The notes below the pieces were generated by a model. That model saw only the letters and a program-made list of their open reading frames with translations. It had not been told where the DNA came from and ran no database searches. Shown one piece after another: positions 41,626-60,774 of a DNA stretch of 64,000 nucleotides. Numbering within the stretch: the first letter of the stretch is position 1; each line of letters opens with the position of its first letter. Source of the DNA: Nitrospirota bacterium. GTDB taxonomy: Bacteria > Nitrospirota > Nitrospiria > 2-01-FULL-66-17. Where the stretch lies: contig JBMOMC010000043.1 of NCBI GenBank assembly GCA_049325335.1, positions 277,852 to 341,851 of the forward strand, in the 5' to 3' direction. The translations under genes were made by a program, and so were the position numbers.

Positions 41626-41627
41626 GC

Positions 41628-41747
41628 GCCCGTCCATGAGCGGTCATCTGCTGCGTTGTCGTTTCGAAATCCCTCCTCACGTACGCCCCAGTACGCTCCG
41701 GGGGGATTTCTCGCTCCGCCTTGCATCTGACGCGCTCCTGAACGGGC
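41628..41747. repeat. ~120-nt structured interspersed element, copy A
   Basis: CTGC.GCGTTG...CTCACGTACG...AGTACG...CGCCTTGCAT core within long imperfect inverted repeats. Confidence 0.85.
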
Positions 41748-41780
41748 TTGAATGGGTTATGCCGCAATGGGGATTTCCGT

Positions 41781-43046
41781 ATGCATGATTTTCGTGATAT
41801 CGGCGGGCAATTATACTGCGAGCAGGTTCCGGTGGCCAAGATTGCCAAGGCGGTCGGCACGCCGTGTTATATCTACAGCCACCGGACGTTGACCAGGCAC
41901 TTTCAGGCCGTGGACGGCGCGTTTGCGTCGATTCCGCACGTTACCGCGTTCGCGATGAAAGCCAACTCCAACCTGGCGATCCTGCGGCTGTTCGCGTCGC
42001 TGGGCGGCGGTGCCGATATCGTCTCGGGCGGGGAACTGTATCGCGCGCTCAAGGCGGGCGTGCCGCGCGACAAGATCGTGTTCGCGGGCGTAGGCAAGAC
42101 CCGCGAAGAGATCGCGGAAGCGCTCAAGGCCAAGATCCTGTCGTTCAACGTGGAGTCGGCGCAGGAACTGGCCGCGATCGATGAGGTGGCGCGCAAGCTC
42201 AAGACGCGCGCGCGCATCTCGCTGCGCGTGAACCCGCACATCGACCCCAAGACCCACCCGTACATTTCGACCGGGCTCAAGAAGTCCAAGTTCGGGATCA
42301 ACATCGACCAGGCGCTCGCTCACTATAAAGACGCGAGCGGGCGCAAGGGCATCGAGATCGTGGGCGTGCACCATCACATCGGCTCGCAGCTCACGCAGGT
42401 TCAGCCGTTCGTGGAGGCGCTCGCGCGGGTGTTGGAATTGGTCGACGCGCTCAAGGCGCAGGGCGTGGTCATTCGCAGCTTGGACATGGGCGGCGGGTTG
42501 GGCATCCCGTACAAGGACGAAACGCCGCCGTCGCCCCAGGATTTGGCGAACGCGGTGCTGCCGTTGCTGCGCGGGCGCGACCTCACGTTGATCATCGAGC
42601 CGGGGCGCGTGTTGGTGGGCAACGCCGGCATCTTGGTGACCAAAGTGCTCTACACCAAAGAAGGCGCGGAAAAGAATTTCGTGGTGGTGGACGCGGGCAT
42701 GAACGACCTGCTGCGGCCCAGCCTGTACGAGGCGTACCACGAGATCAAACCGGTGCGTCGCGCCCAGCGCTCGCCGCGCGTGGTGGACGTGGTCGGGCCG
42801 ATCTGCGAGTCCGGGGATTTTCTCGCGCAAGACCGCGAACTGCCGTCGGTGGAGCCGGGCGAGTTGCTGGCCGTGATGAGCGCGGGCGCGTACGGGTTCT
42901 CCATGGCCTCCCGCTACAACTCGCGGCCGATGATTCCCGAAATCATGGTGAAGGGCAACCGCTTCGTGGTGATCCGCGAACGCGAGACCTATCACGATCT
43001 GGTGCGGGGCGAAACGATTCCCGCGTTTTTGAAAGGCGGCCGCTGA
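41781..43046 (+). CDS. lysA: Diaminopimelate decarboxylase
   Basis: FAMKANSN, HIGSQ, GGGLG, EPGR, GPICESGD. Confidence 0.97.
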   Translation: MHDFRDIGGQLYCEQVPVAKIAKAVGTPCYIYSHRTLTRHFQAVDGAFASIPHVTAFAMKANSNLAILRLFASLGGGADIVSGGELYRALKAGVPRDKIVFAGVGKTREEIAEALKAKILSFNVESAQELAAIDEVARKLKTRARISLRVNPHIDPKTHPYISTGLKKSKFGINIDQALAHYKDASGRKGIEIVGVHHHIGSQLTQVQPFVEALARVLELVDALKAQGVVIRSLDMGGGLGIPYKDETPPSPQDLANAVLPLLRGRDLTLIIEPGRVLVGNAGILVTKVLYTKEGAEKNFVVVDAGMNDLLRPSLYEAYHEIKPVRRAQRSPRVVDVVGPICESGDFLAQDRELPSVEPGELLAVMSAGAYGFSMASRYNSRPMIPEIMVKGNRFVVIRERETYHDLVRGETIPAFLKGGR

Positions 43047-43462
43047 TGACCCTGGCAGCCGAGACCACGGCGCCGGCCAAGCCGGGCGACCGCAAGGGAC
43101 GCGGGTTCTTCCTGACCCTGATCATCGTGTCGGGCATCGTGATCTTGGGCCTCGCGATCTTGTTCTTCAAAGGGAAGGACTTTTTTATTTTCACCTGGCA
43201 GAAGTTCGTGATCGAGAAAGCGCTGGTGCGCGCGCTGCCGCCCGAGTACACGGTCGAGCAAGTCGAGGGCATTCGCCGCGCGCTCATCGATTTTTACGCC
43301 GCGGGCGGACGCCACGAGATCTCGGACGAAGCCTTGTACGGTATGAGTCAAGGCATCAAAACCATTTTGGCCGACCAGGTGGTCACGAAACAAGAAGCCG
43401 AGGCGCTGATGGCATTCATCAAAGAACATGGACCCAAGGCGGAGGGCGCCGCGGCGCCCTAA
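43046..43462 (+). CDS. Hypothetical single-TM protein
   Basis: Translationally coupled to lysA; hydrophobic N-terminal helix. Confidence 0.7.
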   Translation: MTLAAETTAPAKPGDRKGRGFFLTLIIVSGIVILGLAILFFKGKDFFIFTWQKFVIEKALVRALPPEYTVEQVEGIRRALIDFYAAGGRHEISDEALYGMSQGIKTILADQVVTKQEAEALMAFIKEHGPKAEGAAAP

Positions 43463-43466
43463 GTTC

Positions 43467-44300
43467 ATGGCTCGGACGACCAAGATTCCGTTCGCCAAGA
43501 TGTCGGGAAGCGGCAACGACTTTGTCCTGATCGACAACCGGAAGGAGATTGTCCCGCGTCGTTCCATGCGGGCATTCGTGAAGGCCGTGTGCCGACGAGG
43601 GTTGTCGGTGGGCGCGGACGGGGTGATCTTCATCCAGCCGTCGCGGCGCGCGGATTTCCGCTGGCACTACTTCAACTCCGACGGCGGCGAAGCCGAGATG
43701 TGTGGAAACGGCAGCCGGTGCGCCGCGCGGTTCGCCGCGCTCAAAAAGATCGCGCCCAAGCAGATGACCTTTGAAACCGTGGCGGGCATCATTCACGCCG
43801 ACGTGGGCGCCAAGAGTGTGACCGTGACGTTGCCTTTGCCGCACGATCTGCGGTTGAACGTGACGGCTGAGGTCAACGGCAAATCGTACGACGCGCACTT
43901 TCTCAATACCGGCGTGCCGCACACCGTGCTCTTTCTGGACGATGTCGAAGCCGTGGACGTGCAGGGGTTGGGGCGCGCGATCCGGTTCCATCCGTTGTTC
44001 GCGCCTGCGGGCACGAATGCGAACTTCGTGCGGATCGACGGCCCGCACCGCTTGACCATTCGGACCTACGAGCGCGGCGTGGAGGCGGAAACCTTGGCCT
44101 GCGGAACCGGCTCTGTGGCCGCGGCCGTGCTGGCCGGTCTGCTCGGCAAAGTCAGCTCGCCGGTCACGTTGACCACGCGCGGAGGACCACCGCTGATCGT
44201 CGGGTTCGAGTTGGAGGGGCACGCGATTCGGCGCGTGGAGTTGACGGGCGAGGCGCGGTTGGTGTACGAAGGCACGTTGACACCGGAGGCGTTACTCTGA
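43467..44300 (+). CDS. dapF: Diaminopimelate epimerase
   Basis: GNDF, EMCGNGSRC, ERGVEAETLACGTG. Confidence 0.97.
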   Translation: MARTTKIPFAKMSGSGNDFVLIDNRKEIVPRRSMRAFVKAVCRRGLSVGADGVIFIQPSRRADFRWHYFNSDGGEAEMCGNGSRCAARFAALKKIAPKQMTFETVAGIIHADVGAKSVTVTLPLPHDLRLNVTAEVNGKSYDAHFLNTGVPHTVLFLDDVEAVDVQGLGRAIRFHPLFAPAGTNANFVRIDGPHRLTIRTYERGVEAETLACGTGSVAAAVLAGLLGKVSSPVTLTTRGGPPLIVGFELEGHAIRRVELTGEARLVYEGTLTPEALL

Positions 44301-45172
44301 TGTTTACTGGCTCATACGTCGCGCTGGTCACGCCGTTCAAGAACGGCAAAGTTGATGAGCGGGCGTTCGGCGATCTGATCGAGTGGCAGATCGAACGCGG
44401 CACCAACGGCTTGGTGCCGTGCGGCAGTACGGGCGAGTCCGCCACGCTCACGCATGAAGAGCACGATCGCGTGATCGAACTCACGGTCGAAGTCGCGCGC
44501 CGGCGCGTGCCCGTGATCGCGGGAACCGGCTCGAACGCGACGCACGAGGCGATTCGCCTCACCAAACACGCCAAGTCCGTGGGCGTGGACGCCGCCTTGT
44601 TGGTCACGCCGTACTACAACAAACCCACGCAGGAAGGCCTGTTCCAGCATTTTGAATCCATTGCGCGCGCGGTGGACCTCCCGTTGGTGTTGTACAACAT
44701 TCCGGGTCGGTCCGTGGTCAACATGACCCCGCAGACCGTGGCCCGGTTGAGCGCCATCACCAATATCGTGGGCATCAAGGAAGCCTCCGGGAACCTATCG
44801 CAGATGAGCGATGTGATCGCCGCCTGCGGGGAGCGGTTCGTCGTGCTCTCCGGCGACGACGCCTTGACTCTGCCGTTGATGGCGGTGGGCGGAAAGGGCG
44901 TGATCTCGGTGACCGCCAACGTGGCGCCGGCCGAAACCTCGGACATGGTCAGCGCCGCGCTCAAGGGCGACTGGGACCGCGCCAAGCGGATGCACTACCG
45001 GCTGCTCCCGTTGTCCAACTCGATGTTCCTCGAGACGAACCCGATTCCGGTCAAATCTGCATTGGCCCTCATGGGGCGGTGCGCGGACGAACTCCGGTTG
45101 CCCCTCACCACGATGTCCGATGGACCGAAGGCGCAACTGCGTCAGACCCTCAGCCAGTTCGGTTTGATCTAG
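44300..45172 (+). CDS. dapA: 4-hydroxy-tetrahydrodipicolinate synthase
   Basis: GSTGES, PYYNKP, YNIPGR, GIKEASG, TNPIPVK. Confidence 0.97.
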   Translation: MFTGSYVALVTPFKNGKVDERAFGDLIEWQIERGTNGLVPCGSTGESATLTHEEHDRVIELTVEVARRRVPVIAGTGSNATHEAIRLTKHAKSVGVDAALLVTPYYNKPTQEGLFQHFESIARAVDLPLVLYNIPGRSVVNMTPQTVARLSAITNIVGIKEASGNLSQMSDVIAACGERFVVLSGDDALTLPLMAVGGKGVISVTANVAPAETSDMVSAALKGDWDRAKRMHYRLLPLSNSMFLETNPIPVKSALALMGRCADELRLPLTTMSDGPKAQLRQTLSQFGLI

Positions 45173-45180
45173 CTGTACCC

Positions 45181-46005
45181 GTGTCCAAGTCCGCCGAGAA
45201 GCCGACCCGCCTCATCATCATGGGGGCCGGGGGCAAGATGGGCCAACGTCTCGTCGCGCTCGCGACGGAAACCTCCGGTCTGGCGCTTGGCGCGGCCGTT
45301 GAGCAAGCGGGCCACCAATCCATTGGTCGCGACGCGGGAGAGACCGCGGGGGTGGGACGCCTTGGGGTCGTGATCAGCGATGACGTGACGCGTGCGTTAT
45401 CGGACGGCGAGGTAGTGATCGACTTTACCGCGCCGGTTGCGACCGACGCATTGGTGCCGTTGGCGGTTGCGCACCGGCGGCCGTTGGTGATCGGAACCAC
45501 CGGGATATCTCCCGATGGCTTGCGCGCGATCCGAGACGCCGCAACCAAATTGCCGATCGTGTTCGCGCCCAACATGAGCCTCGGCATGAACGTCATGTTC
45601 AAGATCGTGGCCGACGTGGCGCGCGCGCTCGGGCCCGGGTACGACCTGGAGATCGTCGAAGCCCACCATCGCCTCAAAAAAGACGCGCCCAGCGGCACCG
45701 CGCTACGGTTGGCCGAGGTGTTGGCCGAAGCGACCAAGCGGCGCCTTGACGAGGTCGGCGTGTACGCGCGCCACGGCCAGATCGGCGCGCGTACGCCCAA
45801 CGAGATCGGCATCCAGACCGTGCGCGCGGGTGACATCGTGGGCGATCACACCGTGTTGTTCGGCGGACTGGGCGAACGACTGGAAGTGACCCACCGCGCC
45901 TCCAGCCGCGACACGTTCGCGCGCGGCGCCATCCGCGCGGCGCAATGGTTGGCAGGAAAGCCGAACGGGCTCTACGACATGCAGGATGTGCTGGGCCTTC
46001 GCTGA
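45181..46005 (+). CDS. dapB: 4-hydroxy-tetrahydrodipicolinate reductase
   Basis: GAGGKMG, IDFT, GTTG, EAHHRLKKDAPSGTA. Confidence 0.97.
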   Translation: MSKSAEKPTRLIIMGAGGKMGQRLVALATETSGLALGAAVEQAGHQSIGRDAGETAGVGRLGVVISDDVTRALSDGEVVIDFTAPVATDALVPLAVAHRRPLVIGTTGISPDGLRAIRDAATKLPIVFAPNMSLGMNVMFKIVADVARALGPGYDLEIVEAHHRLKKDAPSGTALRLAEVLAEATKRRLDEVGVYARHGQIGARTPNEIGIQTVRAGDIVGDHTVLFGGLGERLEVTHRASSRDTFARGAIRAAQWLAGKPNGLYDMQDVLGLR

Positions 46006-46126
46006 GCCTGCTCATCAGGGGCCGTCTGCGGCGTTGCCGCTGCGCATCCGCTGCTCACGTACGACCCAGTACGCTGCGCTGCGGGTGCTCGCGTCGCCTT
46101 GCATCCGGCCCTCTGCTGCGCAGACT
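46005..46126. repeat. ~120-nt structured interspersed element, copy B
   Basis: Same core motifs; outer stem AGCCTGCTCATCAGGGGCCG/CGGCCCTCTGCTGCGCAGACT. Confidence 0.85.
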
Positions 46127-46266
46127 GACGGCGCGGACACATCCGCGCCGGGAATACAGCCTTCCGTCGTCTCGATAGTTTCCACTTTGAGTAGCGAAGA
46201 GAAGAGGGATTCTTATCTTGCCTTTGACGACGCTCACGCTCAACCCAACCCTGCGAGGGTAATCTT

Positions 46267-47028
46267 ATGGACTTGATCGCCGATCCCAACGCCTGGCTTG
46301 CGCTGATCACGCTGACCGCGCTTGAAATCGTCCTGGGCATAGACAACATCATCTTCATCTCGATTTTGGCCGGCAAATTGCCGGCCGAGCAGCGCGCGAG
46401 GGCTCGGACGATCGGCCTGGCCTTTGCGATGGGCACCCGCCTCGCGCTCCTGGCCTCGCTGGTGTGGATGATGCGCCTGACGGCGCCGTGGTTCACGGTG
46501 CTCGGGAACGAGATTTCCGGTCGGGACGTCATTCTGATCCTTGGCGGCCTGTTCCTGCTTGCTAAGAGCACGATGGAGATTCACGACAAACTGGAAGGGG
46601 AAGAGGAGTCTTCGAGCGGCCGCGCGGCCGCGACGTTCGCGAGCGTGATCGTTCAGATCGCGATCTTGGACATCGTGTTTTCCTTGGATTCGATCATCAC
46701 CGCGATCGGCATGGCGAATGAGTTGGCGGTCATGGTCGCGGCGGTCATTATCGCCGTCATCTTCATGATGTTTTTCGCCGGCGCGGTCAGCGCGTTTATC
46801 GACCGGCACCCCACGGTCAAGATGCTCGCGCTGAGTTTTCTGTTGATGATCGGCCTGGCGTTGATCGGCGACGGCTTGGACATGCACATCCCGAAGGGCT
46901 ACATCTACTTCGCGATGGCGTTTTCGGTCTTCGTGGAGTTGCTCAATATTCGCATTCGGCGCCGAGTGAAGCCAGTGCATCTGCGCGGCCCCCACGCGCC
47001 GTCGGAACGATCAGGCGTCGAACAATGA
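46267..47028 (+). CDS. TerC-family membrane protein
   Basis: LEIVLGIDNIIF and DIVFSLDSIITAIG. Confidence 0.93.
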   Translation: MDLIADPNAWLALITLTALEIVLGIDNIIFISILAGKLPAEQRARARTIGLAFAMGTRLALLASLVWMMRLTAPWFTVLGNEISGRDVILILGGLFLLAKSTMEIHDKLEGEEESSSGRAAATFASVIVQIAILDIVFSLDSIITAIGMANELAVMVAAVIIAVIFMMFFAGAVSAFIDRHPTVKMLALSFLLMIGLALIGDGLDMHIPKGYIYFAMAFSVFVELLNIRIRRRVKPVHLRGPHAPSERSGVEQ

Positions 47029-48081
47029 CGCTTGCGCGGTCGGGCGGCGGAACGCGGCGGTGGAGAGGTCGGGCCAGTCGGTGAGGCCGGTGCGTTTGCA
47101 CGCCATCGAAAACAGGGCGTGGATTTGGTCCGCGAACGGGCCATGGCCGGCCATGCGCGAGCCGAAGTTGGGGTCGTTGAGTGATCCGCCGCGTAGATCG
47201 CGGATGCGGTGCAGCACCTTGTCCTTCATCCCTGGTCGGTGCTGGTCCAGCCAGGCTTCGAAGAGCGGCGCCACGCCGTAGGGAAGGCGCAAAGGCACCA
47301 GGCCGGCGAAGGTCGCGCCCGCGTTGGCTGCGGCCTGGATGATCTTCGGGATCTCCGCGTCGTTGAGTCCCGGAATCACGGGGGCGACGTTCACGCCCGC
47401 GGGAACGCCGGCTTGCGCCAAGGCCGCGATCGCGGCCAAGCGTTTTGTCGGGCGCGACGTACGTGGCTCCAATGCGCCGCACAGGTCGGGGTCCAACGTG
47501 GTGATCGACACGACCACGGCGACGGCATGGTGCTCGGCCAATCGCGACAACACGTCCACATCGCGCGTCACCAACGCGTTTTTGGTGATGATCACCACCG
47601 GGTTGCGGAACTCCGCGAGTACTTCCAGGCACTGCCGGGTCAGGCGCAGTTTACGCTCGATGGGTTGGTAGCAGTCCGTGACCCCGCTCATGGCAATGAG
47701 TCGCGGGATCCAGCTCCGTTTGGACAATTCACGCCGCAACAATTCCGGCGCGTCGTGCTTGACCATGATCTTGGTTTCGAAATCGAGGCCCGCGGAGAAT
47801 CCCAAGTACTCATGGGTAGGGCGGGCGTAGCAGTACGCGCAGCCGTGCTCGCACCCCCGATAGGGATTGACGCCGGCGTCGAACCCGACGTCCGGGCTGT
47901 TGTTCCGGGCGATGATCGTTTTTGACGCGTCGGGCAGGAACTGGGTGACGGGCAGCGGTTGCTCGGCGTCCGCCGCGTCGATCGGTTCAGGCACGCGTTC
48001 CACGCGTTCGAACCGGTTCTTGGGATTCTCCGCCGCGCCGCGGCCGTGGACACCGTGTGGCGTGGGGTGCTGTGGGTCCAT
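47011..48081 (-). CDS. PA0069/Rv2578c-family radical SAM protein (SPL-like)
   Basis: NPYRGCEHGCAYCYAR, SGVTDCYQP. Confidence 0.9.
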   Translation of the reverse strand: MDPQHPTPHGVHGRGAAENPKNRFERVERVPEPIDAADAEQPLPVTQFLPDASKTIIARNNSPDVGFDAGVNPYRGCEHGCAYCYARPTHEYLGFSAGLDFETKIMVKHDAPELLRRELSKRSWIPRLIAMSGVTDCYQPIERKLRLTRQCLEVLAEFRNPVVIITKNALVTRDVDVLSRLAEHHAVAVVVSITTLDPDLCGALEPRTSRPTKRLAAIAALAQAGVPAGVNVAPVIPGLNDAEIPKIIQAAANAGATFAGLVPLRLPYGVAPLFEAWLDQHRPGMKDKVLHRIRDLRGGSLNDPNFGSRMAGHGPFADQIHALFSMACKRTGLTDWPDLSTAAFRRPTAQASLFDA

Positions 48082-48082
48082 G

Positions 48083-48439
48083 TTACCTCCCCCAGGTCTT
48101 TTGAAATTCCTCGGGCGAAAATCCCACGGTCACGTGCGTGCCGTCCGTTACGATCGGGCGTTTGATCAGCCGGCCTTCGGCGGCGAGGAGTTTGATCACG
48201 GCATCTTCCGGCAGCGACTTGACCTTCTCTTTCATGTTGAGCGCGCGGTACTGTAGGCCGCTGCGATTCAAAAAATCGGTGTAGGGGCGTCCGCTCTTCG
48301 CGATCATCCTCTGCAATTCATCGGGCGACGGCGGCGACGAGGTGACATCGATGTCTTTGAGCTGCCGTCCTGCTTTGGCGAGAAATTTCTTGGCGTTCAC
48401 GCACGTGCTGCACTTGGCATAGCCATAGAACGTCAACAT
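48083..48439 (-). CDS. ArsC/Spx/YffB-family protein
   Basis: FYGYAKCSTC, LIKRPIV, VGF. Confidence 0.9.
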   Translation of the reverse strand: MLTFYGYAKCSTCVNAKKFLAKAGRQLKDIDVTSSPPSPDELQRMIAKSGRPYTDFLNRSGLQYRALNMKEKVKSLPEDAVIKLLAAEGRLIKRPIVTDGTHVTVGFSPEEFQKTWGR

Positions 48440-48595
48440 GGAAACGCTCCGGGAAGGAACGAATGCTACCAAGGAGCCGGTGATCGATGCAACGCGCGGC
48501 CGTACGCGGACGGGGAATCTCACGCGATGTCGGGTTGGCAAATCAAGTTGCGCTCGGTATACTCCTGAGCACTTTCCCCAACCGGGGTGCCCAAG

Positions 48596-49036
48596 ATGTT
48601 TCCTCCATTCGTCATCTGGTTGAGTCTCGGCGTCGGTCTGCTCATCGTGGAAGTGGTGACCGGCGGATTTTGGATCGGGTTTTTCGGCGTGGGCGGTCTG
48701 GTCACGGCACTGGTGCTCTGGACCGAGGTCATTGCCGGATTGAACGCGCAGATCGCGGTCTTCCTGCTCGCGTCGGTTCTCCCATTGGTCGTGCTTCGCA
48801 AGCCCCTCAAGGCGTGGCTGGATCGGGACGCTCAGGCCAACCGAATCAACGATGCCGCGGGCCAGCTCGCGGTCGTGGTGCAGGACATCGTCCCGCCCGG
48901 AATGGGACGGGTGGAGTATCAGGGCAGCACGTGGGAGGCGGAGTCGGCCGCTGGTGAGCGCTTGGCCGCCACCACGCGGGTCCAAATCGTTCGGCAGGAC
49001 GGCACGCGCCTGTCGGTGCGCGCCCTCTCAAGGTAA
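48596..49036 (+). CDS. NfeD/YbbJ-family protein
   Basis: TM region plus OB domain GRVEYQGSTWEA; upstream of the SPFH gene. Confidence 0.88.
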   Translation: MFPPFVIWLSLGVGLLIVEVVTGGFWIGFFGVGGLVTALVLWTEVIAGLNAQIAVFLLASVLPLVVLRKPLKAWLDRDAQANRINDAAGQLAVVVQDIVPPGMGRVEYQGSTWEAESAAGERLAATTRVQIVRQDGTRLSVRALSR

Positions 49037-49049
49037 CCAGGAGGACGAC

Positions 49050-49997: not shown

Positions 49998-50022
49998 CGT
50001 TCCCAGCGAGCAGGAGGCCGGA

Positions 50023-51441: not shown

Positions 51442-51530
51442 GGGGGATGTTCGGTGTGGATCTATCGAGACGACAGATGTTAGCCGCGACCGCACCGAGC
51501 GGCAGAATTTACGTCGTTACGTGCGAACGA

Positions 51531-52240: not shown

Positions 52241-52351
52241 GGTCGGATTCTATCCCAGGCAGAATCGGCATTCAATCATCGAATCAGAAGTGGCGTTCGT
52301 CGCGGTGCCTTCCAGGTTTGATTCGGGCTTCCGGCCTGGTATGATGCTCGC

Positions 52352-52656: not shown

Positions 52657-52784
52657 TGCCGCAACCCTCGCATTGCGTCACCTCATCACTTCGCCATACG
52701 AGTAGCCGCCTTTGTCACAGGCGCGGTTCTGTCTCGCGCCGGTTTCGTTGACTTCACCCAGGCCCTTTGCTAGCATCGCGCCCT

Positions 52785-54356
52785 ATGCTTTCCCCGGAAA
52801 TTCAGGCACTTCTAGATGGGCTTCATCCGCTCGAAGCGCGGGTGTTTCGCGCGTTCGGCGAGCAATCGTCCGCGTCCGAGGCCGCGTTGCGCGAGGGCAG
52901 CGGGATGGCGACGTCGCAGTTGTCTATGGCGCTGGGGTGGTTGCTGACCAAGGGCGCGGTGCGGGTGGAGAGCGAGCGGGTGACGCGGCGCGCGGCCCTC
53001 GCTGAGGCGGGGAAGCGCTATGCGACCAATCTGATCCCTGAAATTCGGATTCTCAATTGGCTGGGCGAAGGTCAGCGCCTGACCGTGGGGGATCTGCGCG
53101 CGAATCGCGGCCTTGAGCCCGACGAGGTCAGCGGCGCGGTGGGCGCGCTCAAGGGCATGGGCGCGATTCGCATCGTGGAAGGCGGGGTGCTGCATGCTGT
53201 GGCCGACGTGGATGTGAGCCATTTGTTGACGCTCCAGCGCGAGATCGAAGGGCTGGAGCATGTGGGCTCGCGGGTGATGAGCGAGCCGCCGACTCCGGCT
53301 GATCAGCTCGTCGAGCAGCATTTCACTAAGCGGGGCAAAGCCAAGGGCATTTTCCGCATCGACGAGGAGACGGAGCGAACGTTCGCGCTGACCGAGGTTG
53401 GCGCTGCGCTCGCCAAGGCCGTACGCGAGCGTGGACTCGGACTCTCTGAAGAAATTTCTCAGCTCACGCCTGACTTACTGAAGGACGGGGCGTGGCGCGG
53501 CAAGGCGTTTCGCAAATACAACATTGGATTGCGGCCCGCGCGCGTGTTCGGGGGGCGCAAACATCCGTATCGCGCGTTTCTCGACGAAGTGAAGACGCGG
53601 CTCGTGTCCATGGGCTTTGAGGAGATGCGCGGACCGCTGGTCGAGAACGAGTTCTGGGACATGGACGCGCTCTTCATGCCCCAGTTTCATCCCGCGCGCG
53701 AGATTCACGACGTGTACTTTGTGCGTGAGCCGCGCGAGTCCACGCCCATTCCGCAACCGTTTGCCGGCAACGTGGCACGGGCGCACGAGAACGGCAAGGG
53801 CACGGGCTCGACGGGCTGGCGGTACCCGTTCGACCCCAGCCGCGCGCGGCGACTGGTGCTGCGCAGCCAGGGCACGGCGGTGTCGGCCAGGACCATGGCG
53901 GCCAAGCCGAAGATCCCCGGCAAGTACTTCTCGGTTGCCCGCTGCTTTCGGTACGACCAGGTCGATGCCACGCATGCCCCGGACTTCTTTCAGGTCGAGG
54001 GCATTGTCTTGGGCGAGGACATGACGTTTCGTACGCTCTTAGGGCTGTTGCGATTGTTCGCAGTGGAAGTCGCGCGAGCGCCCGAGGTGAAGTTCCTGCC
54101 CGCGTACTTTCCGTACACGGAGCCGTCCGTGGAGATGCACGCCAAACACCCGACGTTGGGGTGGATGGAGTTGGGCGGGGCCGGTTTGTTTCGCCCCGAA
54201 GTCACCTTGCCGCTTGGGGTGAAGGTGCCGGTCATTGCCTGGGGGTTGGGGCTGGATCGTATGGCCATGACTGCGTTGGGGTTGTCCGATATCCGAGATC
54301 TCTTCACTCCTGATCTTGAAACGCTGCGCGTGCATCGCGCGACGGTCACTCTGTAG
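52785..54356 (+). CDS. pheS: Phenylalanyl-tRNA synthetase alpha subunit, archaeal/eukaryotic type
   Basis: About 523 aa with long N-terminus; PQFHPAREIHD, FRYDQVDATH, YFPYTEPS, WGLGLDR. Confidence 0.93.
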   Translation: MLSPEIQALLDGLHPLEARVFRAFGEQSSASEAALREGSGMATSQLSMALGWLLTKGAVRVESERVTRRAALAEAGKRYATNLIPEIRILNWLGEGQRLTVGDLRANRGLEPDEVSGAVGALKGMGAIRIVEGGVLHAVADVDVSHLLTLQREIEGLEHVGSRVMSEPPTPADQLVEQHFTKRGKAKGIFRIDEETERTFALTEVGAALAKAVRERGLGLSEEISQLTPDLLKDGAWRGKAFRKYNIGLRPARVFGGRKHPYRAFLDEVKTRLVSMGFEEMRGPLVENEFWDMDALFMPQFHPAREIHDVYFVREPRESTPIPQPFAGNVARAHENGKGTGSTGWRYPFDPSRARRLVLRSQGTAVSARTMAAKPKIPGKYFSVARCFRYDQVDATHAPDFFQVEGIVLGEDMTFRTLLGLLRLFAVEVARAPEVKFLPAYFPYTEPSVEMHAKHPTLGWMELGGAGLFRPEVTLPLGVKVPVIAWGLGLDRMAMTALGLSDIRDLFTPDLETLRVHRATVTL

Positions 54357-54357
54357 G

Positions 54358-54479
54358 AGGCTGACGATAAACGACTATCTGCTGCGTTGGCGCTGCGCTT
54401 CCGCTCCTCACGTACGCATACAGTACGCTCCGGTGCGGTTCTCGCGCCGCCTTGCATCTGGCACGTTTCTCGCCCGCCT
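54358..54479. repeat. ~120-nt structured interspersed element, copy C
   Basis: Same core motifs; lies between pheS and pheT. Confidence 0.85.
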
Positions 54480-54515
54480 CGATTTGCATCGAGCCTAGAA
54501 TTATCTGCTGCTGAC

Positions 54516-56207
54516 ATGCCGACGATAACTGTCCTCAAGTCCGATCTGGAATCGCTCGCCGGAAGAAGGTTCTCGCTCGATCAACTGTCCGACGCGCTTG
54601 CATTGGTCAAAGGCGAGTTGAAAGAGCATGTGATCGCGACCAATGAGCTGCGCATCGAGCTGAACGACACCAACCGGCCTGACCTGTGGTGCGTGGAGGG
54701 GATCGCGCGGCACTTGGGAACGCCTAAGGCTGGCAAGTCGGCTCGATCTAAAGCAGTGCCCGCAAAGGGCACGTACCGAATCCGGGTGACGAAGGACGTG
54801 CGTACGGCGCGGCCCTACCTGGGCGCATGTGTGGCGCGGGGCGTGGGCGTGACCGACACATTGCTGACGCAGTTTATCCAGACGCAGGAAAAACTCGCCG
54901 AATTGTACGGCCGCAAACGACAGACCGTGTCTATTGGCCTGTACCCGTTACAAAAGATCGTGTTCCCGGTGTCATACACCACGGCCGCCCCGGATGAGGC
55001 GAGCTTTGTCCCGTTGGGTGCGGACAAGGTCATGACGTTGCGCGAGATTTTGGTCCGACATCCCAAGGGCGTGGCGTACGGGAAGATTCTCGCAGCTTGT
55101 ACGCGCTATCCGTTGTTGGTGGATTCGCGCGGAGAGATCCTCTCGTTCCCGCCCATCATCAACAGCCAGGCGTTGGGCGCGGTGGCGGTGGGCGATGACG
55201 ATCTGTTGGTCGAGGTCACGGGCACGGATCAGCGCATGGTGGTGCTGGCGGTCAACATCTGGGCGCAGAACCTGCGCGATCGCGGTGCGCGCGTGGACCC
55301 GGTGACCATCGAGTACGCCTGGGCCACGCCCATGGGGCGCAGGGTGGTCACGCCAAAGGAAATCGCCAAACCCGTGTCGGTACCGGTGCAATTGATCGCG
55401 CAGGTCCTGGGTGAAGCAATCAAGCCGGCCGAGGCCAAGCGGCTCCTGACCGGCTACGGCCATCGGGTTGCTGGTTCGGCCACGACCATAAAGGTCACCC
55501 CGCCCGCGCACCGCGACGACATCTTGCACCCAGTGGACGTGGTGGAAGACGTGGCGATCGCGCGCGGCTACAACTCGTTCGCGCCCGAGATGCCGAGCCA
55601 GTTTACGGTCGGCTCGCTCTCACCGATCGAGCGGTACGCGGATCGCGTGCGCGAGTTGTTGGTCGGTCAGGGATTTCAAGAAACGATGGCCAACATCCTG
55701 ACCTCACGGCAGGACGTGGTGGAGCGCATGGGCGGTGGTCGGACTGGTGAAGGGCTTGTCGAAGTCGACAACCCCATGGTGGAGACATTTGCGGTGCTGC
55801 GTCCGAATCTGCTGGCGTCGTTGTTGCGCGTGGAGGCCGCCAGTTCCAAAGCCGTGTATCCGCACCGCGTGTTCGAGGTCGGTGAGGCCGCGAGTATTGA
55901 TCCTGCGTCCGAGGTGGGCTGCCGCACCGAGGTGCGGGCCGCGGTCCTGATCTCGCACGCGGAGGCTGCGTTCTCGGAAGCCCACGCCGCACTGGAAAGC
56001 CTGGCCTACGCGTTGGGCGTGTCGTACCGCTTGGACCCCACCCCCCACCCGAGCTTTATCGAAGGCCGCGCCGGCACCATCATGCTCGGCGACCGCCCCG
56101 TCGGCGTCATCGGTGAAATCACGCCCTCCGTGCTCGAAGCCTGGGGCATCGGCATGCCGTGCGCGCTGTTCGACCTCTCGGTCGATTCCTTGCTGCCTCA
56201 ATCATAA
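54516..56207 (+). CDS. pheT: Phenylalanyl-tRNA synthetase beta subunit, archaeal/eukaryotic type
   Basis: MPTITV, DTNRPDLW, SFPPIINS, RDDILHPVDVVED; about 563 aa, no B2 OB-fold or C-terminal B8 domain apparent. Confidence 0.93.
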   Translation: MPTITVLKSDLESLAGRRFSLDQLSDALALVKGELKEHVIATNELRIELNDTNRPDLWCVEGIARHLGTPKAGKSARSKAVPAKGTYRIRVTKDVRTARPYLGACVARGVGVTDTLLTQFIQTQEKLAELYGRKRQTVSIGLYPLQKIVFPVSYTTAAPDEASFVPLGADKVMTLREILVRHPKGVAYGKILAACTRYPLLVDSRGEILSFPPIINSQALGAVAVGDDDLLVEVTGTDQRMVVLAVNIWAQNLRDRGARVDPVTIEYAWATPMGRRVVTPKEIAKPVSVPVQLIAQVLGEAIKPAEAKRLLTGYGHRVAGSATTIKVTPPAHRDDILHPVDVVEDVAIARGYNSFAPEMPSQFTVGSLSPIERYADRVRELLVGQGFQETMANILTSRQDVVERMGGGRTGEGLVEVDNPMVETFAVLRPNLLASLLRVEAASSKAVYPHRVFEVGEAASIDPASEVGCRTEVRAAVLISHAEAAFSEAHAALESLAYALGVSYRLDPTPHPSFIEGRAGTIMLGDRPVGVIGEITPSVLEAWGIGMPCALFDLSVDSLLPQS

Positions 56208-56241
56208 AAAAGAGAAAGGGCGCGTATGCGCCCTTTCTCTT
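56205..56241. terminator. Terminator hairpin between convergent pheT and rplT
   Basis: AAGAGAAAGGGCGC-GTAT-GCGCCCTTTCTCTT with A-tract on the left. Confidence 0.85.
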
Positions 56242-56265
56242 CAGTCCACGACGGTAAGTTGCTGT

Positions 56266-56628
56266 TTACGCCGATGCGGTCTTGGTCTTGGCTTGGCTCA
56301 CGACTTTTGAGAACCCGGTCGGATCCGCGATCGCCAAGTCGGACAGCACTTTGCGGTTCAGCACGATGCCGAGGTTTTTCAGCGCGGCCATGAACTGGCT
56401 GTAGGACAGGCCTTCCGCGCGGACGGCCGCGGAGATTCGGGCGATCCACAGCCGGCGGAAGTCGCGCTTGCGGGCACGGCGGTCGCGGAACGCGTATTGC
56501 CGGCCTTTATCGACCAGTTCGGTCGCGGTGCGGAAGAGCCGGCTCTTCCCGCCGTACGCACCCTTGGCGAGTTTCAGGCGCTTGCGGCGCCGTTCCTTGG
56601 TTTTTGGTCCACCTTTGACACGAGGCAT
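56266..56628 (-). CDS. rplT: 50S ribosomal protein L20
   Basis: MPRVKGG...RDFRRLWIARI...LNRKVLSDLA. Confidence 0.98.
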   Translation of the reverse strand: MPRVKGGPKTKERRRKRLKLAKGAYGGKSRLFRTATELVDKGRQYAFRDRRARKRDFRRLWIARISAAVRAEGLSYSQFMAALKNLGIVLNRKVLSDLAIADPTGFSKVVSQAKTKTASA

Positions 56629-56664
56629 TTGGTACTCCTTTCTTCAGTCAATCGACCCTGCGGC

Positions 56665-56886
56665 CTAGGTTTTCCCCACGCCGTACGGGAGTAAGCGTTT
56701 GATCATACTTTGTTCCGCAGGCTCCAGCACCACGGACGTGCTGTAGCTGCGTTTGCGCTGCGCGGTCTTGTGCGACAGAAGGTGGCGGTTGCCCGCGCGC
56801 TTGCGCGAGATCTTGCCGCTCCCGGTGGTTCGGAAACGTTTGAACGCACCCCGGTGGGTTTTCATTTTGGTTCCTGTTTTCGGCAT
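56665..56886 (-). CDS. rpmI: 50S ribosomal protein L35
   Basis: KMKTHRGAFKRFRTTGSGK...HLLSHK...LLPY. Confidence 0.97.
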   Translation of the reverse strand: MPKTGTKMKTHRGAFKRFRTTGSGKISRKRAGNRHLLSHKTAQRKRSYSTSVVLEPAEQSMIKRLLPYGVGKT

Positions 56887-56952
56887 TCGACGTCCTTTCC
56901 TCTGCGGCCGGCTTGCGCTCCGGCCGATCTCGTTCTGGTTGGAGCGCCCCCG

Positions 56953-57459
56953 TCAGCCGTGCTTCGGCGCGAGGAGGATGCTCATGTTGCGCCCTTCCAT
57001 CCGCGGTTGTTGTTCCACCTGCGCCGCGGAACCCAGTTGCTCGATCATCTTCCCCAGCACCGTGCGCCCCGCGTCCTGGTGAGCCATTTCCCGGCCGCGG
57101 AACATCACGGTGATTTTGACCTTGTGCCCCTCGGCCAAAAAATCCTTCACGTGGCGGGTCTTGAATTCCACGTCGTGGGTGTCGGTAAAGGGGCGCAGCT
57201 TCACCTCTTTGAGTTGCGTCGCCTTTTGTTTGGCCCCCTGCTGCTTCTTTGACTGCTCGTAACGGTACTTGCCGTAGTCGATGATGCGACAGACGGGCGG
57301 GACGGCCGTCGGCGACACTTCCACGAGGTCCAAACCCGCTTCCTCGGCGCGTTTGATCGCATCGCCGATCGGCAGGACCCCGATCTGCTCGGAGTTGGGG
57401 CCGATGACCCGCACCTCGCGGATTCGAATTTCCTGATTCACCCGGTGTTTTACTGCGAT
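56953..57459 (-). CDS. infC: Translation initiation factor IF-3 (ATC start)
   Basis: AAAGGAGG-6nt-ATC; RVNQEIR, LDLVEV, DYGKYRY, FRGRE. Confidence 0.96.
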   Translation of the reverse strand: MAVKHRVNQEIRIREVRVIGPNSEQIGVLPIGDAIKRAEEAGLDLVEVSPTAVPPVCRIIDYGKYRYEQSKKQQGAKQKATQLKEVKLRPFTDTHDVEFKTRHVKDFLAEGHKVKITVMFRGREMAHQDAGRTVLGKMIEQLGSAAQVEQQPRMEGRNMSILLAPKHG

Positions 57460-57490
57460 AGACGGCCTCCTTTGATTAACGCGGGCGCGA

Positions 57491-59449
57491 TCACGCCCGA
57501 CCCTTGGACGGTTGCGCGGTGGATGGACCGGCGACCCGCGCGCGAATTTCGGTCTCGATGTGGTCCGCCACGGCCGCGACCGCTTGGGCCGGCAATTCTT
57601 GCCCGTCGCGCCGGCGCACCGACACGGTGCCGGCCGCGGCTTCGCGATCGCCGAGCACCAGCATGTAGGGAATCTTGGCCAATTGGGCTTCGCGGATCTT
57701 GAGACCGATCTTTTCGTTGCGGCCGTCGAGCTCGGCGCGGATGCCGCGGCCGGCGAGCGCCGCGAGGACCTCGCGCGCATAGGGGTGCACGCGGTCCGCG
57801 ATGGGCAACACAATGGCCTGCGTGGGCGCGAGCCACGTGGGGAACGCGCCGCCGTAGTGCTCGATCAACACGCCGAGGAACCGTTCTAGCGAGCCCAACA
57901 ATGCGCGGTGGATCATGATGGGCTGGTGGTCCTTATCGTCCTCGCCCTTGTAGTGCAGGCCGAACCGATCCGGGAAGTTGAAGTCCACCTGGATCGTGGC
58001 GCACTGCCACGAGCGCCGCAGCATGTCCTTGATCTTAATGTCGATCTTCGGTCCGTAGAACACGCCCTCGCCAGGATCAACCTGATACGGCAAGCCCTTG
58101 GCGCGCAACGCGCCTTCCAGCGCCGACGTGGCTAGGTCCCAGCGCTCCAAGGCGCCCACGTATTTTTCGGGCCGGGTGGAAAGGTAAATGTCGTACTCCG
58201 GGAACCCGAAGGTGGTCAGGATCGTGGTTACGAAGTCGAGCACGTTGGTGATTTCGTGCTGCAACTGGTCGGGCCGGCAGAAGAGGTGCGCGTCGTCCTG
58301 CGTGAATCCTCGCACGCGCATCAGGCCGTGCAACACGCCGGAGCGCTCGAAGCGATACACCGTGCCCAGCTCGGCGAATCGCACCGGCAAATCGCGATAG
58401 CTGCGCGGTCGTGACTTGTAGACCATGATGTGGAACGGGCAGTTCATGGGTTTGAGTTCGTACTCCACGCCCTCCACGTCCATGGGGGTGAACATATTGT
58501 CGCGGTAAAAATCCACGTGTCCGCTGCGCCGCCACAGATCCAGTTTGGCCACGTGCGGGCTGTAGACCATGTCGTACCCCGCGCGGTCGTGTTCGTTGCG
58601 CCAGAAATCTTCGATGGTGCGGCGGATGCGCGCGCCCTTGGGGTGCCAGAGCACCAAGCCGGGACCGACCTCGTCGGTCATGGAGAAGAGGTCCAGGTCT
58701 CGGCCCAACTTGCGGTGGTCGCGGCGCTTGGCTTCTTCCAGCCGGGCCAGGTGCGCGTCCAACTCCTCACGCGTGGGGAACGAGGTGCCGTAGATGCGTT
58801 GCAGCATCCGGTTCTTCTCGTCCCCCCGCCAATACGCGCCGGCCAATGTGGTGAGCTTAAAGTGCGCGACTCCGGCTGTGGTGGAGAGGTGCGGGCCTTC
58901 GCACAGGTCGATGAATTCGCCCTGTTTGTACAAACTGACCGTGGGATCCGGGATGCCTTCGATAATTTCGACCTTATAAGGCTCGCCGCGATCGCGGAAG
59001 AACCGGATGGCCTCAGCTTTCGATAGTTCTTGACGTTCGATCGTGAACGCGGTGCGGGCCAGCTCCTGCATCAACGCTTCGATCTTCTCCAGATCTTCCG
59101 GCGTGAGCGGCCGGTCATAATCAAAGTCGTAATAGAACCCGTCCTCGATGGCCGGGCCGATCGCGAGCTTGATGCCGGGGAACAGGCGTTTGACCGCCTG
59201 CGCCATCAAGTGCGCGGAGCTGTGGCGAAACACTTCGCGGCCTTCGGCGCTGTCGAAGGAGAGCGGTTCCACCCGTGCGTCGCGATGCAACGGGGCGTAC
59301 AAGTCCGCCACGCGGCCATCCACCTTGAGCGCGATGGTCCGACTCCGATGCGCGGAGTCCAACCCGTTGATCACGGTCTGCGGGGTCACCCCGGCCGGAA
59401 ACGAACGGCTCGTGTGATCTGGAAAGGTCAGGACTATTTCAGACGACAT
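57491..59449 (-). CDS. thrS: Threonyl-tRNA synthetase
   Basis: TGS domain, HSSAHLMAQA, DLCEGPH, KPMNCP, RVRGFTQDD. Confidence 0.98.
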   Translation of the reverse strand: MSSEIVLTFPDHTSRSFPAGVTPQTVINGLDSAHRSRTIALKVDGRVADLYAPLHRDARVEPLSFDSAEGREVFRHSSAHLMAQAVKRLFPGIKLAIGPAIEDGFYYDFDYDRPLTPEDLEKIEALMQELARTAFTIERQELSKAEAIRFFRDRGEPYKVEIIEGIPDPTVSLYKQGEFIDLCEGPHLSTTAGVAHFKLTTLAGAYWRGDEKNRMLQRIYGTSFPTREELDAHLARLEEAKRRDHRKLGRDLDLFSMTDEVGPGLVLWHPKGARIRRTIEDFWRNEHDRAGYDMVYSPHVAKLDLWRRSGHVDFYRDNMFTPMDVEGVEYELKPMNCPFHIMVYKSRPRSYRDLPVRFAELGTVYRFERSGVLHGLMRVRGFTQDDAHLFCRPDQLQHEITNVLDFVTTILTTFGFPEYDIYLSTRPEKYVGALERWDLATSALEGALRAKGLPYQVDPGEGVFYGPKIDIKIKDMLRRSWQCATIQVDFNFPDRFGLHYKGEDDKDHQPIMIHRALLGSLERFLGVLIEHYGGAFPTWLAPTQAIVLPIADRVHPYAREVLAALAGRGIRAELDGRNEKIGLKIREAQLAKIPYMLVLGDREAAAGTVSVRRRDGQELPAQAVAAVADHIETEIRARVAGPSTAQPSKGRA

Positions 59450-59525
59450 ACGCAGACGACATACGCATTCCTAATACGTTTGATGATTGTCATCACCACG
59501 TGGTGGTGGGGCGACAACGTGTAAA

Positions 59526-59600
59526 TGGTAGGCACGGGCGGTCTTGAACCGCCGACCTCTACCGTGTCAAGGTAGCGCTCTCCCCCTGAGCTACGTGCCT
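59526..59600 (-). tRNA. tRNA-Val(GAC)
   Basis: AGGCACGTAGCTCAG...CTACC-TTGACAC-GGTAG...GGTTCAAGA...GTGCCT-A-CCA cloverleaf. Confidence 0.97.
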
Positions 59601-59667
59601 GTCCTGCCGAGAAAGTGATGATCGTACGCAATGACTTTGAATGTTGTCAAGCGGTCGGGGTGACGTG

Positions 59668-59703
59668 CGAGCGGCCGCGGCGGAGGTCCGCCGCGGCCGC
59701 TCG
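59668..59703. terminator. Perfect GC-rich hairpin downstream of hup
   Basis: CGAGCGGCCGCGGCGG-AGGT-CCGCCGCGGCCGCTCG; no U-tract. Confidence 0.5.
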
Positions 59704-59745
59704 AAAGCCATCAATCCCGCGGTCTGACGCGGGGGGGGCGACTCG

Positions 59746-60018
59746 TCAACGAATAGCGGATTTAAAGGTCTTCCCGGCGGAGAATCGCGGAACCTTGGTA
59801 GCCGCGATTTTAATGGCCTCGCCGGTGCGCGGATTGCGCCCGATCCGCGCCTTGCGCTTGGACACCGCGAAGGTGCCGAATCCGACCAACGAGACGCGCT
59901 GGCCCTTCTTGAGCGCGCCCGTGATGCCCGCCACCATGGCGCCCAGCGCCTTCGTGGCGGAGGTTTTGGAGATACCCGCGGTGTCAGCCATCCGGTCGAT
60001 CAATTCTGCTTTGGTCAT
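59746..60018 (-). CDS. hup: DNA-binding protein HU
   Basis: MTKAELI...LVGFGTF...GRNPRTG...PRFSAGK. Confidence 0.97.
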   Translation of the reverse strand: MTKAELIDRMADTAGISKTSATKALGAMVAGITGALKKGQRVSLVGFGTFAVSKRKARIGRNPRTGEAIKIAATKVPRFSAGKTFKSAIR

Positions 60019-60135
60019 GCGTCCCTCCTGGTCCGAGTGTGATGGTGAGCGTTCCCGTTGCCCGATCCCACGTCCCTCGTGGCTCCGCGGCGCGTCCAGA
60101 CGCGGCGCGCGGACCCGCATACCGAAAGTGGCGGC

Positions 60136-60219
60136 AGAATAGCAAGGTCGCGCGAGCCCTGTCAAGCGAGAAACGGCTTCCCGGTTACATTTACATTGCC
60201 CAGAGTCGCTGCGTATAAT
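60136..60219. promoter_or_regulatory. Divergent hup and rnpB promoters
   Basis: Minus strand TTGACA-18-TATTCT; plus strand TTTACA-18-TATAAT. Confidence 0.65.
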
Positions 60220-60227
60220 TCCGTCGC

Positions 60228-60613
60228 ACGCCAGAGCGGGCCGGATGATCGCTCCGGTTTGACCGGAGAGGAAAGTCCGAACTCCGAAGGGCAGGGCGCT
60301 CCGTAACGCGGAGGCCTCGTGAGGGGACGGAAAGTGCCACAGAAAACAAACCGCCTGGTCGGGCGACCAACCAGGTAAGGGTGAAACGGTGGGGTAAGAG
60401 CCCACCGCCCCGAGGGTGACCAAGGGGGCACGGTAAACCCCGCCCGGAGCAAGACCAAATAGGAGGACATGCTCCCTTCGGGGAGTAAAGGGTGGCCCGC
60501 CCGAGTCCTCGGGTCAGGTCGCATCGAGGCCGCGGGTAACCGCGGCCCCAGAGAAATGATCATCACTCGCCGGAAGGCGGGCACAGAATTCGGCTTATGG
60601 CGCGCTCTGGCGT
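60228..60613 (+). ncRNA. rnpB: RNase P RNA, class A
   Basis: GAGGAAAGTCC, GGAAAGTGCCACAGAAA, GGTGAAACGG, GGTAAACCCC, CAGAATTCGGCTTAT; P1 ACGCCAGAGCG/CGCTCTGGCGT. Confidence 0.98.
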
Positions 60614-60736
60614 CTGGCCATCGATACGGGGCGACTGCGGCGTTGTCGCTTCGGGGTCGCGTCCTCACGTACGATACAGTACGTTCCGGCGCGGCCCCTC
60701 GCTCCGCCTTGCATTCGCCGCCGTCTCGATGGTCAG
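60614..60736. repeat. ~120-nt structured interspersed element, copy D
   Basis: Same core motifs; abuts the rnpB 3' end. Confidence 0.85.
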
Positions 60737-60774
60737 CCGGCGCAACTGAGCGCTGGAGGGTCAATACCAATAAG

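What the first reader, a model, noticed from the sequence alone, without database searches (positions are those of the whole stretch)
41628..60736. Family of ~120-nt interspersed hairpin elements with covarying stems and invariant loop motifs (4 copies)
Seen: copies at 41628-41747, 46005-46126, 54358-54479 and 60614-60736 (120-123 nt) share CTGC(T/G)GCGTTG ... CTCACGTACG-N4/5-AGTACG ... CGCCTTGCAT at nearly fixed spacing. Their stems differ in sequence yet stay complementary. Inner stems are GAAATCCC/GGGATTTC, GCATCCGC/GCGGGTGC, CCGC/GCGG and GGGGTCGCG/CGCGGCCCC; outer stems include GCCCGT..GTCA/TGAC..ACGGGC and CTGGCCATCGA/TCGATGGTCAG. All four start at or within a few nt of the 3' end of a plus-strand gene (radical SAM, dapB, pheS, rnpB) in the same orientation. 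No transposase and no obvious target duplication is in the window. Inference: structure, not sequence, is under selection, as for REP/REPIN or attC-like ssDNA substrates or a repeated RNA element. I cannot match it to a named family.
Basis: partly seen in the sequence, partly recalled or inferred. Interest (0 to 1): 0.8.

Follow-up and report, generated by a model that had tools for sequence, protein, structure and literature searches.

The report
ERIC-related hairpin mini-transposons with IS1182 ends
These repeats are small non-coding jumping elements that land on gene stop codons, and their folded core is related to the ERIC repeat of E. coli even though their ends belong to a different transposase family.

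Summary
The four copies are real and belong to a family of about 90 in this 3.25-Mb genome. A covariance model built only from enterobacterial ERIC repeats ranks these four copies first in the window (E 4e-8 to 0.01, minus strand). The reverse model's best hit in E. coli K-12 is the hsdR ERIC. So the 'unnamed' invariant motifs are the ERIC core, which occurs under about a dozen phylum labels. The element is longer than reported. Filled versus empty sites show an insert of about 153 nt: a 124-nt hairpin plus a tail ending in a decayed second terminal repeat. The ends match IS1182-family (type A) or IS5-family (type B) insertion sequences flanked by CTAG, which explains docking at stop codons. 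ERIC itself has IS630-like ends. Best reading: old MITEs moved in trans by DDE transposases, now mostly immobile, whose stems are reshuffled between copies. Not REP/RAYT, not attC. Why the core is kept is unexplained; no RNA data were available. The scan's earlier notes describe similar elements on other DNA. New variant of a known kind.

The parts
41626..41749 (-). Copy 1 hairpin (type A arms), directly after the TAA of the radical SAM gene; the ERIC-homologous fold is on the minus strand
   Evidence: ERIC-only model 40.6 bits, E 3.6e-8
41648..41726 (-). ERIC-type core of copy 1; minus strand reads GCAAGGCG ... GGAGCGTAC-loop-GTACGTGA ... CAACGCAGCAG
41750..41779 (+). Tail of copy 1, inferred decayed right terminal repeat (only 6 of 18 matches left); the spacer to the lysA ATG is 155 nt, against 1 nt in one relative's contig
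   Evidence: (table 5c, run X3); inference from the family
46004..46127 (-). Copy 2 hairpin, overlapping the TGA of dapB; site filled in G001 and G003, empty in G002
54357..54480 (-). Copy 3 hairpin, directly after the TAG of pheS; site empty in G001, G002 and G003, partial copy in G004
54481..54509 (+). Tail of copy 3; the pheS-pheT spacer is 159 nt against 6 nt in three congeners, an insert of 153 nt, the family's full unit length
60613..60737 (-). Copy 4 hairpin, directly after rnpB; kept in 5 of 5 genomes of the family where rnpB was found, with a different complementary inner stem in each
39730..41625 (+). B12-binding radical SAM gene (upstream of copy 1)
45181..46005 (+). dapB (upstream of copy 2)
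52767..54356 (+). pheS open frame (upstream of copy 3; start codon not fixed)
60233..60612 (+). rnpB, RNase P RNA class A (upstream of copy 4)

Best explanation
[quoted passage not shown] Layout (shown): left terminal repeat, core, an internal imperfect copy of the terminal repeat that closes the 124-nt hairpin, an 11-12 nt spacer, then the true right terminal repeat. Movement (inferred): a DUF772-type DDE transposase acting in trans (IS1182 family for type A ends, IS5 family for type B) inserted them at 4-bp CTAG-like targets. Insertions survive mainly where the target is a stop codon, because the end restores it. After insertion (right-end decay, cassette swaps and collapse shown; the mechanism inferred): the right end decays and the copy is fixed. 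Copies then exchange inner cassettes by gene conversion between the conserved motifs, gain optional modules, or collapse to short hairpins. The core's loops are kept. My best guess is that the minus-strand fold is recognised by a host or element protein, but this step is not shown.
For: Insert size: 21 empty sites among 64 syntenic G001 sites (70 loci examined), 14 of the 21 with inserts of 148-164 nt; pheS 153 nt. Right end: 40 of 129 type A copies match the IS end at 11 or more of 18 bases (shuffles mean 4.1, max 11), and 32 of the 40 sit at offset 11-12. The same 17-mer bounds 1.5-kb elements, one of which encodes an IS1182 transposase (NF033551, 355 bits against cut-off 270). Such elements occur in genomes of the same class, and 139 of 154 ends follow a C, giving CTAG. 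Type B ends bound an IS5-family element and show the same nested layout. 64 of 86 copies have a same-strand stop within -15 to +12 nt of the left end, against 4% at random intergenic spots; TAG makes up 32 of these 64 against 603 of 2,882 stops genome-wide. ERIC kinship. A published IS1182-type MITE with 18-bp ends and 4-bp direct repeats exists (PMC11578231, passages).
Against: No insertion sequence with these ends was found in this assembly: 0 matches, and one unrelated DUF772 gene on a short contig. 89 of 129 tails no longer match the IS end. Clean target duplications are visible in only a few filled/empty pairs (e.g. L421, L422); most have drifted. Copy 4 and other type C arms match no IS end that I tested. 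In many phyla the core has outer arms with no obvious shared terminal repeat. The model built from this genome reports only 1 of the 19 E. coli ERICs in a whole-chromosome scan with strict filters, so the kinship is distant.
Confidence: 0.75

Rival explanations
1. Domesticated RNA element: whatever their origin, resident copies are kept because the transcribed hairpin at gene ends controls mRNA processing or stability, as proposed for ERIC in Yersinia.
For: Almost never between divergent genes (1 of 92, and that one follows rnpB). In 19 orthologous pairs the motifs diverge 4.3% against 19-26% for other parts. The rnpB copy is kept in 5 of 5 family genomes with compensated stems. ERIC effects on mRNA decay are reported in reviews (PMC2229807, PMC10969869, passages).
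Against: The purine-rich loops, the two consensus G-U pairs and the tandem GA pairs lie on the strand opposite to the upstream gene's mRNA in most copies. Derived mismatches show no G-U excess on either strand (53 against 48). 21 of 64 syntenic sites are empty in a congener. Gene conversion alone can hold the motifs constant.
Confidence: 0.3
2. Single-strand (HUH/RAYT, REPIN- or IS200-like) element: the one-strand fold is the substrate of a Y1 transposase, and the IS-like ends are incidental.
For: The minus strand folds better in 35 of 48 (RNA) and 38 of 48 (DNA) plain copies. The genome has four Y1 genes. 12 copies have their tip replaced by a GTAG-type REP palindrome.
Against: No family copy or GTAG REP motif beside the four Y1 genes. 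The fixed-offset second terminal repeat and its match to IS1182/IS5 ends are not expected from an HUH element.
Confidence: 0.1
3. Neutral palindromes: the covariation is made by replication template switching and gene conversion, and nothing selects the core today.
For: 4,016 of 4,181 cells in the well-paired columns are Watson-Crick with no strand bias. Whole inner cassettes differ between orthologues. Copies collapse to bare hairpins. Template switching at imperfect palindromes is recalled, not from a call.
Against: Template switching should erase the internal loops, yet they persist in nearly all copies and across phyla. Two columns alternate between two C-G pairs and a tandem GA/GA (54-56 against 51-52 of 113), which makes sense only as a one-strand structure.
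Confidence: 0.25
4. attC-like recombination site of an integron.
For: Size of about 120 nt, imperfect palindrome, one better-folding strand.
Against: Copies sit singly after housekeeping genes (lysA, dapB, pheS, rnpB), not between cassettes in arrays. The ends match IS termini. R and L boxes were not scanned for.
Confidence: 0.03

Closest known systems
ERIC / IRU / RU-1 / MITEEc1 (127-bp enterobacterial repeat; MITEPlu5 in Photorhabdus)
   Same: Same four core motifs in the same order at nearly the same spacing (offsets 24-25/6-7/27 nt here against 27/4/29 in ERIC), same long imperfect hairpin, same placement at gene ends. Covariance models hit each other in both directions.
   Different: ERIC has short terminal repeats with TA ends and resembles IS630 ends (PMC2229807 table, PMC6267812 passages). 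This family has IS1182- or IS5-type ends, a 4-bp target, a nested second terminal repeat and a 153-nt unit. Outer stems do not align. The reviews read place ERIC in Enterobacteriaceae and Vibrionaceae.
IS1182-family insertion sequences and their MITEs (NF033551; MITEPye1 of Paracoccus yeei)
   Same: Terminal repeat, CTAG context, non-coding intergenic unit folding into a long stem-loop (PMC11578231 passages; 4-bp direct repeat of ISPse1 in PMC3281130 table).
   Different: Here the hairpin is closed by an extra internal copy of the end, and the core is not a piece of the autonomous IS: the family model hit none of 19 autonomous-IS loci. Whether MITEPye1 has the core was not tested.
IS5-family insertion sequences (NF033581)
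   Same: Type B copies share the end CAGGCTGCTGAAAAA with 1.3-1.8 kb elements, one of which was scanned and encodes an IS5-family transposase.
   Different: Type B is a minority (17 paired ends) and none of the four window copies.
Second E. coli K-12 repeat at ffh-rpsP and four other sites (probably RSA; that identity is recalled)
   Same: Shares the tip CCGGAGCGTAC-loop-GTACGTGAG and was hit by the family model.
   Different: Lacks GCAAGGCG and CAACGC; E-values 0.13-5.6. PMC5172473 lists six RSA copies of 150-151 bp but gives no coordinates.
REP/REPIN with RAYT
   Same: Intergenic palindromes near stop codons; GTAG-type REPs are present and replace the tip of 12 copies.
   Different: No tagged REP doublet in the plain element, and no copy beside the Y1 genes.

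Membership tests
MITE (IS1182/IS5 type) | Short, non-coding, multi-copy, intergenic | tested here: met
   92 hits, nearly all between called genes
MITE (IS1182/IS5 type) | Terminal inverted repeats at both true ends matching an autonomous IS | tested here: met
   Left ends match 11 or more of 15 in 77 of 129; right ends 11 or more of 18 in 40 of 129 at fixed offset; IS identified. Decayed in the window copies.
MITE (IS1182/IS5 type) | 4-bp target duplication | tested here: inconclusive
   ATGA repeated on both sides in L421, CTAG/CTAA in L422; drifted in most pairs, whose flanks are only about 72-95% identical
MITE (IS1182/IS5 type) | Filled and empty orthologous sites | tested here: met
   pheS, dapB; 21 empty of 64 syntenic G001 sites and 18 of 28 G003 sites
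MITE (IS1182/IS5 type) | Cognate transposase in the same genome | tested here: not met
   Not found in G000 with these queries; present with matching ends in other genomes of the class. The assembly is a 45-contig draft.
MITE (IS1182/IS5 type) | Mobilisation by that transposase | not testable with these tools
   needs a transposition assay
ERIC/IRU | Conserved central core sequence and hairpin | tested here: met
   ERIC-only model: the four copies are its top four window hits; all 19 genome hits at E<=10 are family copies; it finds 19 full-length copies in K-12, the published IRU count (PMC5172473 table)
ERIC/IRU | 127-bp unit with TA termini and IS630-like ends | tested here: not met
   153-nt unit, IS1182/IS5 ends, CTAG-type target
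ERIC/IRU | Co-transcription and RNase E-dependent effect on the upstream mRNA | not testable with these tools
   no RNA holder listed
REP/REPIN-RAYT | Copies flanking a RAYT gene | tested here: not met
Rfam RNA family | Hit above gathering score | tested here: not met
   none on the four copies at E<=1 or on four more G000 copies at E<=10
attC | R/L boxes and cassette arrays with an integron integrase | not tested
   boxes and integrase not scanned; context is housekeeping genes

The most novel reading that the evidence does not exclude
ERIC is one branch of a pan-bacterial superfamily defined by a portable folded module, not by its ends. The same core was picked up by IS630-, IS1182- and IS5-type termini. 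It is kept because a conserved protein recognises its minus-strand structure (as single-stranded DNA or antisense RNA), and some resident copies, such as the one behind rnpB, are now host-selected.
Probability: 0.35. Interest if true: 0.8.

Novelty: new variant of a known kind. Interest (0 to 1): 0.5.

Why it matters
ERIC repeats have been used for typing since 1991 and are described, in the reviews read, as enterobacterial and vibrio elements of unproven mechanism. A core shared with repeats in Nitrospirota, Desulfobacterota and other phyla, riding on ends of different transposase families, separates two questions that were tangled: what moves the element (the ends) and what preserves the core (unknown). 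Both can now be tested, with an IS1182 transposase and an intact 153-nt element, and with loop mutants. It also warns RNA-motif pipelines that such repeats give strong covariation without being shown RNAs.

Tried and rejected
Rfam: no match on the copies; the hsdR ERIC itself scores below threshold against RF02818. A plain sequence HMM from this genome barely sees ERIC (best E 0.003, 44 of 121 pattern-picked loci at E<=10); only the covariance models do. RAYT partner: rejected. Autonomous IS as the source of the core: no hit in 19 loci. Strand test by G-U excess: no bias; a smaller count leaned to the plus strand (28 against 11) but used a fold-biased pair set. The idea that tails turn into hairpins: 36 of 129 against 28 of 129 in downstream controls, dropped. 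Terminator or promoter role: only one 5-pair terminator-like match inside a copy and no promoter match. Expression: no RNA holder listed; contigs laid on the region gave one joint lacking copy 1 in a relative and nothing on strain-level excision. Mobile carriers: 5 matches in viral contigs, none in plasmids or phages by blastn. Literature: ten searches listed no paper linking ERIC to Nitrospirota or to IS1182 ends. Five core motifs were not found as plain strings in the alignment file of PMC2864571 (gaps can hide them). Four motifs were not found in the supplement text searched for PMC2700814 (7 of 19 files not searched, and alignments may be pictures). The supplement of PMC5737381 and the original Yersinia ERIC paper could not be read, and ISfinder was not available, so an existing entry is not excluded.
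Full report
Observation. The core pattern occurs 4 times in the window and never in 100 shuffles. Each copy folds into one long imperfect hairpin on either strand. The flanking genes are as named. Rfam gives nothing on the copies.

The family. Iterated nhmmer from the four copies gives 92 hits in the 3.25-Mb assembly; a covariance model R1 from 24 of them gives 81. Congeners G001 and G003 give at least 125 and 134 (150 candidates scored each), and 83 of 101 genomes of the class have a match. Some bin labels may be wrong. The closest subtypes are in Nitrospirota records, so I infer that lineage for the window. Outer arms differ between phyla; the loops do not.

It is related to ERIC. The minus strand reads GCAAGGCG ... 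GGAGCGTAC-loop-GTACGTGA ... CAACGC(A/C)GC. R1, which saw no enterobacterial sequence, gave six hits at E<=10 on the whole E. coli K-12 chromosome. The best (E 0.005) lies between hsdR and hsdM and is about 85% identical, counted by eye, to the 127-nt ERIC consensus printed in PMC2759123 Table 1a. The other five belong to a second repeat that shares only the tip. R1 reported only 1 of the 19 K-12 ERICs in that filtered scan, but with filters off it scored 32 of 34 ERIC loci at E<=0.006 (33 of these loci were picked by a pattern holding the shared motifs). The reciprocal model R2 was built from 25 ERICs. One of them is the hsdR copy found by R1, and 23 came from that pattern, so it is not fully independent. 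R2 finds 19 full-length copies in K-12, the IRU count in PMC5172473. Its top four hits in the window are the four copies (40.6, 32.1, 25.2 and 20.1 bits; next 15.4), and all its 19 hits in the genome are family members. E-values of these models are rough.

The real ends. At pheS-pheT three congeners have a 6-nt spacer and the window has 159 nt: an insert of 153 nt, 29 more than the hairpin. Of 70 G001 loci, 64 were syntenic with G000: 36 filled, 21 empty and 7 flagged as remnants, of which by eye two are collapsed hairpins, two are neighbouring copies in the other orientation, and the rest are doubtful (a first pass counted 30 filled). 14 of the 21 inserts measure 148-164 nt. The extra tail ends in a decayed inverted copy of the left end. 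A 17-mer of that end bounds 1.5-kb elements in many phyla. The one scanned encodes an IS1182 transposase, and elements with the same ends occur in the window's class. 40 of 129 type A tails match this end at 11 or more of 18 bases, against a mean of 4.1 in 300 shuffles, and 32 of them start 11-12 nt after the hairpin. Type B copies repeat the layout with ends of an IS5-family element. So the unit is: terminal repeat, core, internal repeat, spacer, terminal repeat. In the four window copies the right end is no longer recognisable by sequence.

Why stop codons. IS ends of this type follow a C in 139 of 154 cases, giving CTAG. CTAG is rare in this genome (1,005 against about 10,900 expected), and 125 of them end a gene. 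By my own gene calls (2,882 genes), 73 of 92 copies point away from an upstream gene's end, 17 lie the other way round, 1 follows rnpB and 1 is at a contig end. 64 of 86 have a stop at the left end, and 14 have an opposite-strand stop near the right end. TAG is enriched, but TGA and TAA are used too, so the target is loose. A 4-bp duplication is clear in few pairs. ERIC differs here: TA ends and IS630-like termini (PMC2229807, PMC6267812; passages).

What happens after insertion. In 19 orthologous pairs the motifs differ at 29 of 678 positions, other paired bases at 228 of 1,189, and tails at 141 of 538; 51 pairs changed on both sides to another Watson-Crick pair. Several pairs differ by a whole inner cassette typical of another subtype, which points to gene conversion. 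Optional modules occur: a 46-nt insert (20 matches), two others (7 and 17), and a GTAG REP replacing the tip (12). The rnpB copy is kept in 5 of 5 family genomes, each with its own complementary inner stem, and is absent from the other families' rnpB loci shown (part of the output was cut).

Which strand. The minus (ERIC) strand folds better in 35 of 48 copies as RNA and 38 of 48 as DNA. It carries both consensus G-U pairs and a two-pair position that alternates between C-G pairs and tandem GA. Derived mismatches show no strand bias (53 against 48), and 96% of cells are Watson-Crick. This fits a fold specified on one strand but repaired at the DNA level. In most copies that strand is antisense to the upstream gene, which weakens a simple mRNA role. 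No RNA data could be had.

Mechanism. Shown: family, core homology, nested ends, match to IS1182 and IS5 termini, gain and loss, cassette differences. Inferred: mobilisation in trans by those transposases, stop-codon docking through a CTAG-type target plus purging of intragenic insertions, gene conversion. Not shown: any function of the core. No matching transposase was found in this draft assembly, and the decayed right ends suggest the main expansion is old.

Novelty. The kind is known (MITE; ERIC; IS1182-type MITEs such as MITEPye1, PMC11578231 passages). Ten literature searches listed no report of an ERIC-type core outside Gammaproteobacteria or on IS1182/IS5 ends; ISfinder and some supplements were not seen. 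Earlier notes of this scan describe Nitrospirota stop-codon MITEs, ERIC-related repeats in Patescibacteria, and IS1182-type hairpin MITEs on other DNA; they are unchecked AI notes and are not counted as support. Papers seen: PMC2759123 (first part and passages); PMC2229807, PMC10969869, PMC3184786, PMC5172473, PMC2700814, PMC2996986, PMC11602168, PMC3281130, PMC11578231, PMC6267812 (passages); PMC2864571 (supplement searches only). The name RSA for the second E. coli repeat and template-switch mutagenesis are recalled.

Noticed in passing
L332-L336 (E. coli K-12 2746321, 192646, 1007695, 2543656, 1798997): A second E. coli repeat, probably RSA (recalled), shares the tip motif of ERIC and of this family, suggesting that the two E. 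coli repeats are related.
   Followed up: partly
L331:1498-1621: Rfam RF02818 (Vibrio RNA AS5) matches the E. coli hsdR ERIC at E 4e-7, below its gathering score; that family may be an ERIC copy.
   Followed up: no
window 28667-28694, 39427-39454, 27840-27865: GTAG-type REP palindromes after genes; 56 strand matches genome-wide (about 28 sites, as a palindrome matches on both strands); the four Y1 transposase genes L121-L124 are not flanked by them.
   Followed up: partly
window 8393-8485: c-di-GMP-I-GGC riboswitch above gathering score, upstream of a long gene with no Pfam hit.
   Followed up: no
window 52767-54356 and 54516-56207: pheS frame is long (over 500 aa) with N-terminal winged-helix matches and pheT is about 560 aa, an archaeal/eukaryote-like PheRS layout by recall.
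   Followed up: no
window 30577-30758 and 59529-59600: 6S RNA and a tRNA on the minus strand.
   Followed up: no
L449, L470, L517, L546, L554, L618, L620, L645, L660, L699: Short elements in other phyla with the same IS1182 or IS5 ends; most score with the family model, some hold two cores head to head; many other elements with these ends have unrelated middles.
   Followed up: partly
L135, L137, L177, L184, L187, L206: Records labelled Clostridia carry the ERIC-letter version of the core, GGAGCTTAC...GTAAGTGA.
   Followed up: no
G000:C13, C33: Short contigs whose longest frames look by eye like group II intron reverse transcriptases; no link to the repeats tested.
   Followed up: no
window 62290-62345: Another palindromic repeat type (CCCTCCCCCCTTGAGGGGGAGGG) near the start of the pseudouridine synthase gene; similar ones sit next to family copies in relatives.
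   Followed up: no
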